A stretch of 58,346 bases of DNA, taken from positions 1-58,346 of the IMG/VR virus record IMGVR_UViG_3300044655_000081; one strand, written 5' to 3'. The translations under genes were made by a program, and so were the position numbers. Shown here piece after piece: positions 52,117-52,818 of this stretch. The stretch is from a virus (Duplodnaviria; Caudoviricetes). Position 1 is the first letter of the stretch. Every line of letters begins with the position of its first letter. The notes under the pieces are model-generated. The model searched no databases. It worked only from the letters and a program-made list of their open reading frames with translations, and was not told where the DNA came from.

Positions 52117-52267
52117 AGCGGGCCCGTTCTGTTTCGAGGTGGAGCCCATACCCAAAGGTTATGCTGCTAGAGCAAATGCCTCATAGGCGTTGTTGTCGTT
52201 TGCCTTTACGATTTGCTTTCGATCTCCTTACGCCTTTACCACGTAGATCGATTCCCGGAACACCCCC
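52117..52267 (-). ncRNA. ssrA: Two-piece tmRNA, coding piece (5' acceptor strand GGGGGTG, tag frame ANDNNAYEAFALAA*)
   Basis: Minus strand GGGGGTGTTCCGGGAATCGA...GTAAAG GCA AAC GAC AAC AAC GCC TAT GAG GCA TTT GCT CTA GCA GCA TAA (52203-52159), then a GGGCTC..CACCTCGAAACAGAAC..GGGCCC 3' element of alphaproteobacterial type. 3' end approximate. Confidence 0.92.
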
Positions 52268-52268
52268 A

Positions 52269-52739
52269 TCATAAAGAAACATATGGATTGGTCTTTCTCA
52301 TTACAGATTTTAGTCTTCCACGATCCCATCCTTCTGGATGATCATCTAAAGAATACTGACCTTCTTTATCACCATTGTTGAACCAGTATCTTTTGTTTCT
52401 GACTTTTCTACCATCAACATTTTTAGCATAACCAGATTCTCTCTTATGAAAAGGCAAATAATCTGGATCATCCCTAAACTTTATATGCGGACCCCAACGT
52501 CTCATATTTGCTATTTTGGCGCCTTGTTTGGCGCCTTCACGAATAGCCAACAATCTACATTCTTCTGTGGACATCAACTTTAGAAGGCCTTGCCAAGCAG
52601 CGTAGTCTTGCCATAGACCGTGTTGTTCATACAAAACACGGTGCGCCTCAGCATGTTCTTCCACAGATAGTTCTACTAAGTTTTCAGGATCATCATTCCC
52701 ACCCATATGTTTAGGAATGATATGGTGTTTATGCTTCAT
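52269..52739 (-). mobile_element. HNH (homing) endonuclease gene inside the tmRNA intervening segment
   Basis: HHIIPKHMGG.D...NLV.L...EHA.AH HNH motif; C-terminal WFNNG...P.GW..GR module; SD AAGGA directly after the tmRNA CCA. Confidence 0.88.
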
Positions 52740-52749
52740 TGTTTCCTTA

Positions 52750-52818
52750 TGGTGGAGGTGGGGGGATTTGAACCCCCGTCTCTTCCGCTTATTCTGCGTC
52801 TCTCAACGATCTAAGCAT
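52750..52818 (-). ncRNA. ssrA: Two-piece tmRNA, acceptor piece (T-arm, 3' acceptor strand, encoded CCA)
   Basis: GAC GGGGG TTCAAAT CCCCC CACCTCC A CCA pairs 7/7 with GGGGGTG including G3-U70; GCTT, GATC and ACGC complement the coding piece. 5' end approximate. Confidence 0.92.

What the first reader, a model, noticed from the sequence alone, without database searches (positions are those of the whole stretch)
52117..52818. Phage-encoded two-piece tmRNA with intact alanylation and proteolysis determinants
Seen: a 7-bp acceptor stem with G3-U70 and discriminator A (AlaRS identity), a canonical T-arm GGGGG-TTCAAAT-CCCCC, encoded CCA, and inter-piece helices GCGT/ACGC, GATC/GATC and AAGC/GCTT. 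The tag ANDNNAYEAFALAA ends in LAA. Established: ANDN...AA tags and permuted genes are hallmarks of Alphaproteobacteria, and C-terminal LAA is the ClpXP degron. Inference: the host is an alphaproteobacterium, and the phage supplies its own ribosome-rescue RNA (using host SmpB; none is encoded in this window). This could help against mRNA- or tmRNA-cleaving defence toxins or during host mRNA degradation.
Basis: partly seen in the sequence, partly recalled or inferred. Interest (0 to 1): 0.7.

Follow-up and report, generated by a model that had tools for sequence, protein, structure and literature searches.

The report
Nuclease gene inside split phage tmRNA

Summary
On the minus strand, 52816..52120, lies a circularly permuted tmRNA gene (Rfam RF04321 62.2 bits, cut-off 47). 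Its inter-piece helices covary in relatives.

Phage-encoded two-piece tmRNAs are already published (Melnitz and pelagimyophages, PMC9004378). This gene sits in the same place, upstream of the gp33-like gene.

Its ribosome-binding site and last codons form the stem that closes the spacer.

Close syntenic relatives have 80-110-nt spacers without the ORF. Three other diverged lineages have it. The window's tRNA-like core on both sides of the ORF matches a different tmRNA lineage (35 of 35 nt), which looks like a co-conversion tract.

ARAGORN misses all four HNH-bearing genes.

An alphaproteobacterial host is plausible but not shown.

I found no paper describing a nuclease gene in this spacer. Earlier notes of this scan report the same arrangement on other DNA.

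The parts
52821..52851 (-). Promoter-like site: TTGACT (52851..52846), a 17-nt spacer, then TATAAATA (52828..52821), about 5 nt upstream of the first paired base of the acceptor piece
   Evidence: Read. In the block alignment, TTGAC and TATAAATA are kept in the 7 syntenic sequences while the 17-nt spacer varies. The consensus scanner did not call it because its rule needs T at hexamer position 6; it called a weaker overlapping site and found fewer sites than the shuffles. Promoter function is inferred.
52750..52816 (-). Acceptor piece of the tmRNA. It holds the 5' strands of the inter-piece helices, the T-arm, the 3' acceptor strand, discriminator A and CCA. The 5' end is not mapped.
   Evidence: Rfam RF04321 alignment, script parse, helices covary
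52761..52777 (-). T-arm GGGGG-UUCAAAU-CCCCC
   Evidence: This and the next 18 nt are identical (35 of 35) to the compact tmRNA genes of L003/L004/L005/L007.
52750..52760 (-). 3' acceptor strand CACCUCC, discriminator A, encoded CCA
52268..52749 (-). Intervening segment (spacer), 482 nt, removed during maturation in known two-piece tmRNAs
   Evidence: Homologous spacers are 44-110 nt in relatives without the ORF.
52740..52749 (-). 5' strand of the spacer-closing stem, UAAGGAAACA. It contains the AAGGA ribosome-binding site of the HNH ORF.
   Evidence: 10-bp stem found by script; 69 of 5000 shuffles reach it. Equivalent stems of 9-13 bp with different sequences occur in 8 other distinct genes.
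52272..52281 (-). 3' strand of the spacer-closing stem, UGUUUCUUUA. It is also the last codons of the HNH ORF (..V S L). It is followed by UGAU and then G1.
52269..52739 (-). HNH endonuclease ORF, 156 aa. ATG lies 10 nt after CCA. The stop TGA (52271..52269) ends 1 nt before G1 of the coding piece.
   Evidence: ORF. PHROG 655 'homing endonuclease', E 6.7e-15. Pfam HNH PF01844 20.6 bits, just under its 21.4 cut-off. H5, H6, N20, H29 and H33 are invariant in 8 relatives. dN/dS is 0.14-0.31.
52120..52267 (-). Coding piece of the tmRNA. It holds the 5' acceptor strand GGGGGUG (52267..52261), a D-loop-like region, the 3' strands of the inter-piece helices, the tag frame and the 3' hairpin. The 3' end is not mapped.
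52159..52203 (-). Tag reading frame: GCA resume codon to TAA, reading ANDNNAYEAFALAA*
   Evidence: ARAGORN calls the same peptide in 5 of 5 HNH-free relatives.
52120..52147 (-). 3' hairpin after the tag, GGGCUC(C)...GAAACAGAA...GGGCCC, with no T-run after it
   Evidence: RNAfold per sequence. A hairpin with an AACAGAA-type loop forms in 9 of 10 sequences with five different stem sequences; L009 folds a hairpin with a different loop. No terminator-like site on this strand.
51686..51988 (-). gp33-like late-transcription factor downstream (synteny marker). A 64-aa membrane-like ORF (52098..51904) lies between it and the tmRNA gene.
   Evidence: PHROG 254, E 5.8e-20. Same order as SsrA then 'late promoter transcription accessory' in Pelagibacter phage Mosig and as described for Melnitz (PMC9004378).
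53827..54501 (-). PD-(D/E)XK exonuclease gene upstream (synteny marker)
   Evidence: Pfam PF12705, E 7.8e-7; PHROG 298. The same gene lies upstream of SsrA in Mosig.

Best explanation
This is a genuine, probably working, alpha-type two-piece tmRNA (ssrA) gene of an uncultured T4-like phage. It sits at the same locus as the ssrA of pelagimyophage Mosig and methylophage Melnitz. Its spacer has been colonised by a mobile HNH homing-endonuclease gene.

Proposed working:
1. One transcript starts at the conserved TTGACT-17-TATAAATA site. It runs through the acceptor piece, the spacer and the coding piece, and probably on into the downstream genes.
2. The HNH protein is translated from this precursor or from the excised spacer. 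This spacer has no promoter of its own.
3. Host tRNA-processing enzymes cut at G1 (52267) and trim to CCA (52750). This releases two RNAs that pair through the acceptor stem and three further helices.
4. Host AlaRS charges the RNA (G3-U70, discriminator A). Host SmpB delivers it to stalled ribosomes. The tag ANDNNAYEAFALAA marks the stalled products for proteolysis.
5. The spacer is discarded anyway, so the nuclease gene does no harm there and needs no self-splicing intron. Its ribosome-binding site and last codons have taken over the two strands of the stem that normally closes the spacer.
6. The nuclease spreads by cutting tmRNA genes that lack it. Repair copies it in together with the adjoining tRNA-like core.

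Shown here: the anatomy, conservation, covariation, presence/absence among relatives, the mosaic, and purifying selection on the ORF.

Inferred: transcription, processing, charging, tagging, nuclease activity and homing.
For: tmRNA identity:
- RF04321 scores 62.2 bits (cut-off 47) despite the 482-nt insertion.
- Within the tmRNA clan the alpha model is the best match (RF01849, 36.1 bits, E 2.1e-8).
- That model scores 79.6-105.4 bits in 5 of 5 HNH-free syntenic relatives.
- ARAGORN calls a permuted tmRNA with this tag once the spacer is shortened in silico.

Structure is kept by selection:
- In 10 of 10 distinct genes the acceptor stem is 7 of 7 paired with G3-U70, A and CCA, although there are four different stem sequences.
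- The inter-piece helices pair in 31/32, 32/32 and 32/32 cells, with compensatory changes.
- A spacer-closing stem of 9-13 bp occurs in 9 of 10 genes. It is reached by at most 69 of 5000 shuffles in each of those 9.

Same locus as known phage ssrA: PD-(D/E)XK nuclease, then ssrA, then gp33-like gene (PMC9004378).

The HNH gene is real and mobile-looking:
- PHROG 655, E 6.7e-15; catalytic H/N/H residues invariant; dN/dS 0.14-0.31.
- The 11 loci that share the 27-nt core of the coding piece make 6 sequence types. One type has a 492-nt spacer with the ORF, as the window does (482 nt). The other five have spacers of 80-110 nt without it.
- The strict 'ORF between CCA and G1' layout is found in 7 of 78 evaluable loci encoding an HNH relative. 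These make three distinct sequences, with three different tags.
- The window and L012 are 87% identical in 801 nt of flank and 94% in the coding piece, but 65% in the HNH gene, with dS about 1.9. This points to separate acquisitions.

Mosaic:
- The 35 nt before the spacer are 35/35 identical to L003 and 24/31 to the syntenic clade.
- The 35 nt after the spacer match L003 at 30/36.
- The rest of the coding piece (52110..52232) matches the clade at about 90-94%.

No group I intron model matched 51600..53200 at E up to 1.
Against: - There are no expression or processing data; no RNA holder was listed.
- The alpha-specific model is below its cut-off in the window itself (36.1 against 50).
- The free-energy co-fold of the two pieces reproduces the T-arm and acceptor stem but not the three inter-piece helices. 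It pairs the 5' end with the tag region instead.
- The promoter is my reading. The scanner did not call it and found fewer sites than in shuffles.
- Pfam HNH is just under its cut-off.
- The fold search of the HNH model (pLDDT 72.7) gave no match at E 0.001 or better. There were only weak 36-39-residue hits to HNH nuclease cores.
- No donor was found that combines an L003-type core with an HNH gene. The mosaic could come from ordinary recombination.
- In the window the spacer stem is the weakest of the nine (69 of 5000 shuffles).
- One of the four HNH-bearing genes (L013) stays under the RF04321 cut-off (42.7 bits).
- dS is near saturation, so the dN/dS values are rough.
Confidence: 0.8

Rival explanations
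1. The tmRNA gene has been disabled by the insertion. A 482-nt spacer, translated by ribosomes up to 1 nt before the RNase P site, blocks folding or processing, so the gene is a decaying remnant and only the nuclease matters.
For: ARAGORN fails on all 4 HNH-bearing genes. The alpha model is sub-threshold in the window, and RF04321 is sub-threshold in L013.
Against: Every defining element is intact in all 4 HNH-bearing genes, and the paired strands have changed together. The tag peptide is identical in the HNH-bearing and HNH-free syntenic relatives. The spacer-closing stem is rebuilt from the ORF's own ends. The arrangement persists in lineages whose HNH proteins are only 56-66% identical. ARAGORN's miss in the window is due to spacer length alone.
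Confidence: 0.1
2. The HNH gene is no longer, or never was, a homing element. The spacer is simply a convenient expression slot, and the nuclease has a phage function such as degrading host or competitor DNA. The mosaic flanks come from ordinary recombination between co-infecting phages.
For: Purifying selection on the ORF. No cleavage site or donor allele has been identified. Earlier notes of this scan report other, non-nuclease genes in phage tmRNA spacers (e1-6110277 and e1-6166923; unchecked). PMC11915505 reports a tRNA-Ala gene and a repetitive element in such spacers.
Against: Presence/absence among close relatives at exactly the same site. The HNH genes are far more diverged than their flanks. 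The foreign tract lies exactly on both sides of the ORF. The family is annotated as homing endonucleases in T4-like phages. Relatives sit beside tmRNA genes in three other layouts (L016, L057 and L019/L025).
Confidence: 0.15
3. One reading: an ordinary phage tmRNA whose presence shows an alphaproteobacterial host, kept to counter mRNA- or tmRNA-cleaving defence toxins.
For: The tmRNA is alpha-type. No SmpB in 4 of 4 records searched. No psbA in 4 of 4 records, so these are not typical cyanophages. The nearest deposited match to the coding piece is in Sinorhizobium phage Phosso (82% over 88 nt). Synteny with a Pelagibacter phage.
Against: Melnitz shows that an alpha-type ssrA can sit in a phage of a non-alphaproteobacterial host (PMC9004378). 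The terminase is closest to cyanomyoviruses, at only 52-54%. The tRNA-like core here has itself been exchanged between tmRNA lineages, which weakens tmRNA as a host marker. Nothing tested bears on defence systems.
Confidence: 0.3
4. It is host DNA: an attachment-site remnant or a mis-assembled bacterial ssrA inside a viral contig.
For: tmRNA genes are common integration sites, and fragments occur in prophages (PMC9004378). A weak hit of the L003 gene fell on an attR in a Pseudomonas phage.
Against: The gene is complete, not a 3' fragment. It lies among T4-like replication and late-transcription genes. It is found at the same place in records estimated 94-100% complete.
Confidence: 0.02

Closest known systems
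Phage-encoded two-piece tmRNA (ssrA) of methylophage Melnitz and pelagimyophage Mosig (Buchholz et al. 2022, PMC9004378)
   Same: A T4-like aquatic-type myovirus with an alpha-type permuted gene, lying directly upstream of the gp33-like late-transcription factor and downstream of a PD-(D/E)XK nuclease gene. No phage SmpB.
   Different: Mosig's SsrA is compact (339 nt), and the paper's text does not contain 'HNH', 'homing' or 'intervening'. Here the spacer is 482 nt and encodes a nuclease. No glutamine riboswitch model matched here at E up to 1, unlike Melnitz.
Alphaproteobacterial two-piece tmRNA, Rfam RF01849 / RF04321 (Caulobacter type; Keiler, Shapiro and Williams 2000, seen only as cited in PMC9004378 and PMC11915505)
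   Same: The gene order is acceptor piece, spacer, coding piece. It has G3-U70, discriminator A and encoded CCA, an ANDN...LAA-type tag, and pieces held together by base pairing.
   Different: It is encoded by a phage. The spacer is about ten times longer than in compact relatives and is protein-coding. The window's own RF01849 score is below the cut-off.
tmRNA genes interrupted by group I introns in the T-loop, some carrying LAGLIDADG homing endonuclease genes (PMC11915505, passages read)
   Same: A homing-type endonuclease gene rides inside a tmRNA gene, in a segment that is absent from the mature RNA.
   Different: There is no intron here: no group I model matched. The site is the natural spacer of a permuted gene, not the T-loop. 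The nuclease is HNH, not LAGLIDADG. Removal would rely on host tRNA-processing enzymes, not self-splicing.
Other cargo reported in permuted-tmRNA spacers: a tRNA-Ala gene and a repetitive element (PMC11915505)
   Same: They show that the spacer tolerates long inserts (the longest reported gene is 1152 bp).
   Different: Those inserts are not protein-coding nuclease genes, and they are in (nominally) cellular genomes.
Free-standing homing endonucleases of T4-like phages, for example MobD/MobE and SegB in the T4 tRNA gene cluster (names recalled; 'mobD: homing endonuclease' appears as an annotation)
   Same: An intron-less HNH-type gene lies between or beside conserved genes of a T4-like phage. 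It shows presence/absence among relatives and foreign flanking tracts.
   Different: It sits inside one RNA gene, between the two strands of a single helix. Co-conversion therefore carries both strands of the acceptor stem at once. The ORF's ends double as RNA structure.

Membership tests
Permuted (two-piece) tmRNA, Rfam RF04321 | Score at or above the curated cut-off of the covariance model | tested here: met
   62.2 bits against 47, E 1.1e-9, full model 1-213
Permuted (two-piece) tmRNA, Rfam RF04321 | Permuted order: the 3' tRNA-like half with CCA lies upstream of the 5' acceptor strand and the tag frame | tested here: met
   CCA at 52752..52750 and G1 at 52267 on the minus strand
Permuted (two-piece) tmRNA, Rfam RF04321 | tRNA-Ala-like acceptor: 7-bp stem, G3-U70, discriminator A, CCA, T-arm | tested here: met
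   Kept in 10 of 10 distinct related genes with four different stem sequences.
Permuted (two-piece) tmRNA, Rfam RF04321 | Tag frame starting at an Ala resume codon and ending in a hydrophobic ..LAA plus a stop | tested here: met
   ANDNNAYEAFALAA*
Permuted (two-piece) tmRNA, Rfam RF04321 | Helices joining the two pieces, supported by covariation | tested here: met
   31/32, 32/32 and 32/32 standard pairs in 8 sequences, with compensatory changes. The MFE co-fold does not show them.
Permuted (two-piece) tmRNA, Rfam RF04321 | Precursor cut into two stable RNAs; alanylation; SmpB binding; tagging | not testable with these tools
   No RNA holder was listed. These need bench work.
Alphaproteobacterial type, Rfam RF01849 | Score at or above the cut-off (50 bits), and best among the clan models | tested here: inconclusive
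   The window scores 36.1 bits (E 2.1e-8), best in its clan but under the cut-off. The long insertion is penalised. HNH-free syntenic relatives score 79.6-105.4 bits (5 of 5) and L012 scores 51.4.
HNH homing endonuclease | HNH (beta-beta-alpha-metal) catalytic motif | tested here: inconclusive
   H5, H6, N20, H29 and H33 are invariant in 8 sequences. PHROG 655, E 6.7e-15. Match to the maturase En domain, E 0.0022. However, Pfam PF01844 scores 20.6 against a 21.4 cut-off, and the fold search gave nothing at E 0.001 or better.
HNH homing endonuclease | Presence/absence at one site among close relatives | tested here: met
   The 11 loci sharing the coding-piece core make 6 sequence types: one with the ORF (as in the window) and five without it.
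HNH homing endonuclease | Foreign (co-converted) sequence on both sides of the insert | tested here: met
   The 3' core is 35/35 identical to L003 against 24/31 to the syntenic clade. The 5' core is 30/36 identical to L003. Beyond the core, the rest of the coding piece is 90-94% identical to the clade. Ordinary recombination is not excluded.
HNH homing endonuclease | Site-specific cleavage of the insert-free allele, and biased inheritance | not testable with these tools
Group I intron-borne endonuclease in tmRNA (tmRNA_intron form) | Group I intron RNA around the ORF, inserted in the T-loop | tested here: not met
   No intron model matched 51600..53200 at E up to 1. The T-loop is uninterrupted.

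The most novel reading that the evidence does not exclude
The discarded spacer of permuted tmRNA genes is a natural, intron-free safe harbour for homing endonucleases.

The two strands of the acceptor stem lie on either side of this spacer. Each homing event can therefore carry a matched pair of strands, and with them the whole tRNA-like core, into the recipient. The nuclease would thus drive exchange of tmRNA cores between phage lineages, including between alpha-like and beta-like genes, without ever breaking the helix.

The ORF's ribosome-binding site and last codons have become the spacer-closing stem, and its stop codon ends 1 nt before the RNase P site. Translation of the nuclease and maturation of the tmRNA would therefore compete on one molecule. 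Ribosomes caught on a precursor that has already been cut could even be rescued, and the nuclease tagged, by the tmRNA that the same transcript makes.
Probability: 0.3. Interest if true: 0.75.

Novelty: new variant of a known kind. Interest (0 to 1): 0.55.

Why it matters
- **Annotation.** The standard tmRNA finder (ARAGORN) misses every HNH-bearing gene examined here (0 of 4) but finds 5 of 5 HNH-free relatives. A cultured Sinorhizobium phage, Phosso, has an unannotated gene of the same kind with a 400-nt spacer. Counts of phage tmRNAs are therefore too low.
- **Mobile-element biology.** This is a clean natural case of a homing-type nuclease living inside an RNA gene without an intron. It uses a segment that host tRNA-processing enzymes remove anyway, and its own coding ends serve as RNA structure.
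- **Host prediction.** The tRNA-like core of this phage tmRNA has been swapped between lineages. tmRNA type is therefore a weak host marker.
- **What it is not.** The tmRNA itself is not a new discovery.

Tried and rejected
- ARAGORN on the native window found no gene. It also missed the compact gene of L016, so an ARAGORN miss is not always due to spacer length.
- A mis-specified DNA pattern (4 instead of 5 free positions) found nothing and wasted one viral scan.
- The exact 28-nt T-arm and acceptor end in bacterial genomes gave 10 hits in mixed phyla and none labelled alphaproteobacterial. It is not informative about the host.
- The L003-type gene against deposited phages gave only 37-46-nt hits, including Mosig SsrA.
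- The HNH protein against deposited phages gave 7 records, the best 31% identical over 76%. The S-SRM01 copy lies between structural genes, not in a tmRNA gene.
- The whole-gene MAFFT alignment A2 put the acceptor strand of short- and long-spacer genes in different columns. I did not use it for pair counts and counted on anchored blocks in scripts instead. My first pair count had wrong offsets and was redone.
- The co-fold of the two pieces reproduced the T-arm and acceptor stem but not the inter-piece helices.
- The promoter/terminator scanner found one weak promoter-like site on the minus strand (fewer than in shuffles) and no terminator on that strand.
- HNH structure: pLDDT 72.7, with the C-terminal third poorly modelled. 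Foldseek against the PDB gave no match at E 0.001 or better. The C-terminal domain stays unassigned.
- RNA runs: no RNA holder was listed.
- No glutamine riboswitch or group I intron model matched at E up to 1 in 51600..53200.
- In the supplements of PMC11915505 (1 file held as text), the tag string, 'HNH', 'endonuclease' and 'phage' were all absent. In those of PMC9004378 (3 files), the two tag strings and 'HNH' were absent. The sequence files of the tmRNA database itself were not available to me and could hold such genes.
- The paper on phage Mushroom (PMC4392139) turned out to be irrelevant.
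Full report
**Observation**

On the minus strand the window holds a circularly permuted tmRNA gene. Rfam's merged model RF04321 matches 52811..52159 end to end at 62.2 bits (cut-off 47, E 1.1e-9).
- acceptor stem GGGGGUG/CACCUCC with G3-U70
- discriminator A and an encoded CCA (52752..52750)
- T-arm GGGGG-UUCAAAU-CCCCC
- the helices ACGC/GCGU, GAUC/GAUC and GCUU/AAGC
- the frame GCA...TAA reading ANDNNAYEAFALAA

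That G3-U70 is the AlaRS identity element and that C-terminal LAA is a ClpX degron are recalled knowledge, not tested here.

The two pieces are 482 nt apart (52749..52268). That spacer is almost exactly filled by a 156-aa ORF (52739..52269). The ORF starts 10 nt after CCA, behind an AAGGA. Its TGA stop ends 1 nt before G1 of the coding piece.

The product is an HNH nuclease:
- PHROG 655 'homing endonuclease', E 6.7e-15
- Pfam HNH 20.6 bits, just under the 21.4 cut-off
- a match to the En domain of a group II intron maturase, E 0.0022
- DNA-level hits to annotated homing endonucleases of T4-like phages

ARAGORN finds nothing in the native window. It does call a permuted tmRNA with this tag once the spacer is shortened in a script.

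**Context**

The record is a 58-kb fragment of a virus, estimated 35% complete. It carries T4-like structural, gp32, gp59, gp33, PhoH and ligase genes.

The order PD-(D/E)XK nuclease, tmRNA, gp33-like factor is the same as in Pelagibacter phage Mosig, whose annotated SsrA is a compact 339 nt. [quoted passage not shown]

That paper already counted 53 two-piece tmRNAs in phage genomes. The 2025 tmRNA database paper lists 79 phage tmRNAs (PMC11915505, passages). A phage-encoded two-piece tmRNA is therefore known.

**Relatives with and without the nuclease**

A 27-nt core of the coding piece found 11 viral loci. They make 6 sequence types, and all carry the same tag.
- One type (L091/L094/L099, the same contigs as L010-L012) has a 492-nt spacer with an HNH ORF.
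- Five types have spacers of 80, 82, 85, 93 and 110 nt with no such ORF.

Starting instead from the protein, 187 of 195 candidate stretches encoded a relative and 80 loci were kept. I gave 79 of them to a script. L054 was left out because its match began at residue 3, and the ORF of L056 ran off its locus. Of the 78 evaluable loci, 7 (L009-L015, three distinct sequences) have the strict layout: T-arm, acceptor strand and CCA upstream, with the matching 5' acceptor strand 1 nt after the stop.

These genes have three different tags: ANDNNAYEAFALAA, ANESVYQLAA and ANDSNYNYALAA.
- RF04321 passes its cut-off in the window, L012 and L009, but not in L013 (42.7 bits).
- L013's best clan match is the beta-type model, which is sub-threshold.
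- ARAGORN of 5 HNH-free relatives and 0 of 3 further HNH-bearing ones. It also misses the compact gene of L016.

**RNA structure is maintained**

- Across 10 distinct genes the acceptor stem is always fully paired and keeps G3-U70, A and CCA, although four different stem sequences occur.
- In 8 sequences the three inter-piece helices are standard pairs in 31/32, 32/32 and 32/32 cells. L003 shows changes on both sides.
- A hairpin after the tag with an AACAGAA-type loop forms in 9 of 10 sequences with five different stems; L009 folds a hairpin with a different loop.
- A stem closing the spacer (9-13 bp, directly after CCA and 4-5 nt before G1) is present in 9 of 10 genes. It is reached by 1 to 69 of 5000 shuffles. 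In L003 it is interrupted by a mismatch.
- In the window this stem is UAAGGAAACA (52749..52740) with UGUUUCUUUA (52281..52272). One strand is the ORF's ribosome-binding site and the other is its last codons.
- HNH-free relatives have the same stem and the same ..UGAU|G junction. The ORF therefore uses a stop codon that was already part of the spacer.

I tested it here and it holds.

**Mosaic and separate acquisitions**

- The last 35 nt of the window's acceptor piece are 35/35 identical to the compact genes L003/L004/L005/L007, but 24/31 identical to its own syntenic clade.
- The first 35 nt of the coding piece match L003 at 30/36 and give no blastn match to the syntenic clade apart from one 15-nt hit in L092.
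- The remainder of the coding piece (52110..52232) matches the clade at about 90-94% and L003 at about 71%.

So a foreign tRNA-like core lies exactly on both sides of the ORF. In L091 only the 7+7 nt of the acceptor stem differ from its HNH-free neighbours, and they equal those of L013.

The window and L012 are 87% identical over 801 nt of flank and 94% in the coding piece. They are only 65% identical (66% in protein, dS about 1.9) in the HNH gene. I read this as at least two separate arrivals of diverged nuclease genes at the same site, each bringing adjoining sequence. Ordinary recombination is not excluded.

The ORFs are under purifying selection (dN/dS 0.14-0.31, with dS near saturation). 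They keep H5, H6, N20, H29 and H33.

**Likely mechanism**

Shown: the anatomy, conservation and population pattern described above.

Inferred:
- One transcript starts at a TTGACT-17-TATAAATA site. Its hexamers are kept in the 7 syntenic sequences while the spacer varies. The scanner did not call this site. That TATAAATA is the T4 late-promoter consensus is recalled.
- The nuclease is translated from the precursor.
- tRNA-processing enzymes cut at G1 and CCA, as stated for permuted genes in PMC11915505.
- The two RNAs pair and work with host AlaRS and SmpB. No SmpB was found in 4 of 4 records, 3 of which are 94-100% complete.
- No terminator follows, so the transcript probably continues into the 64-aa ORF and the gp33-like gene.

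**Host**

- The tmRNA is alpha-type: it is the best clan model in the window and scores 79.6-105.4 bits in the HNH-free relatives.
- The nearest deposited match to the coding piece is an unannotated gene in Sinorhizobium phage Phosso (RF01849 108 bits).
- psbA is absent from 4 of 4 records, which argues against a typical cyanophage, although the terminase is closest (52-54%) to cyanomyoviruses.
- Melnitz shows that tmRNA type and host can disagree. The core has been exchanged here. The 28-nt end occurs in unrelated bacteria.

I put an alphaproteobacterial host at about even odds.

**Novelty**

In the held library I found no paper describing a nuclease gene in the spacer of a permuted tmRNA gene. 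The searches were 'tmRNA + homing endonuclease + intervening' (18 papers), 'tmRNA + HNH + permuted' (32) and 'two-piece tmRNA + endonuclease' (16). I read only the listings, except for the papers named above.

PMC11915505 reports homing endonuclease genes only inside T-loop group I introns, and reports a tRNA gene and a repeat element in spacers. No group I intron model matches here.

This scan has, however, noted the same kind of arrangement before on other DNA (e1-5789481, e1-5789465, e1-5927549, e1-5684334, e1-6093233). Those are unchecked AI notes.

What this window adds is the pair of close relatives with diverged nucleases, the HNH-free alleles, and the foreign core on both sides of the ORF.

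**Caveats**

- There is no expression evidence; no RNA holder was listed.
- The alpha model is sub-threshold in the window itself.
- The energy-based co-fold does not reproduce the inter-piece helices.
- The nuclease's activity, target and C-terminal domain are unknown: model pLDDT is 72.7, and there was no fold match at E 0.001 or better.
- No donor combining an L003-type core with an HNH gene was found.

Noticed in passing
L111:640-1285 (Sinorhizobium phage Phosso, PV764938.1): A cultured jumbo phage has an unannotated alpha-type permuted tmRNA gene (RF04321 113.3 bits, RF01849 108 bits) with a spacer of about 400 nt and no HNH ORF, and the tag ANDNVSTKVALAA. ARAGORN misses it. Its 3' hairpin is nearly identical to the window's.
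   Followed up: partly
L089-L099 T-arms (for example L090:1351-1367); L111 about 664-680: The window's syntenic relatives have an unusual T-loop (GGCAGUU; UGCGAUU in L095) in place of the canonical UUCAAAU seen in the window, and Phosso has GGCGGUA. Whether such tmRNAs bind SmpB and the ribosome normally is unknown.
   Followed up: no
L012:1150-1200 and L013:1140-1200: In two HNH-bearing relatives the spacer holds an extra hairpin (GTCGAT...ATCGAC) with one or two TATAAATA motifs in its loop, directly before a GGAG and the HNH start codon. This resembles the late-promoter-in-hairpin control recalled for T4 intron endonucleases. The window lacks it.
   Followed up: partly
L057:1140-1974: The HNH ORF is preceded by a truncated T-arm fragment (GGACGGGGGTTCGATTC) and followed at once by a complete permuted tmRNA gene (1700-1974, RF04321 100.7 bits; beta-like 76.7 bits, sub-threshold). 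This may be a stranded duplicate of the target site.
   Followed up: partly
L016:1201-2005: In a GC-rich phage a 35%-identical HNH gene lies immediately upstream of a compact permuted tmRNA gene (RF04321 79.3 bits), with a TTGACA-type promoter between them. It sits beside the gene, not in its spacer. ARAGORN misses this compact gene.
   Followed up: partly
L018, L025-L027, L030, L032, L046, L048 (just after the HNH stop, about 1700 in L025): The stop codon of these HNH relatives is followed at once by the reverse complement of a T-arm 5' half (GGACGCGGGTTCGA), that is, a tRNA-like piece on the opposite strand. L025 and L019 also carry intact beta-type permuted tmRNA genes nearby (145.3 and 104.3 bits).
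   Followed up: no
window 52120-52147 and homologous sites in L003, L013, L089-L097, L111: The loop of the hairpin after the tag keeps a (G)AAACAGAA motif across otherwise diverged phage tmRNAs, while the stem changes. No Rfam family matched it, and its role (3' end formation or a protein-binding site) is unknown.
   Followed up: no
window 52098-51904: A 64-aa ORF with a hydrophobic segment lies between the tmRNA gene and the gp33-like gene. It is conserved in the syntenic relatives (same MSEKDKY start) and has no Pfam match.
   Followed up: no
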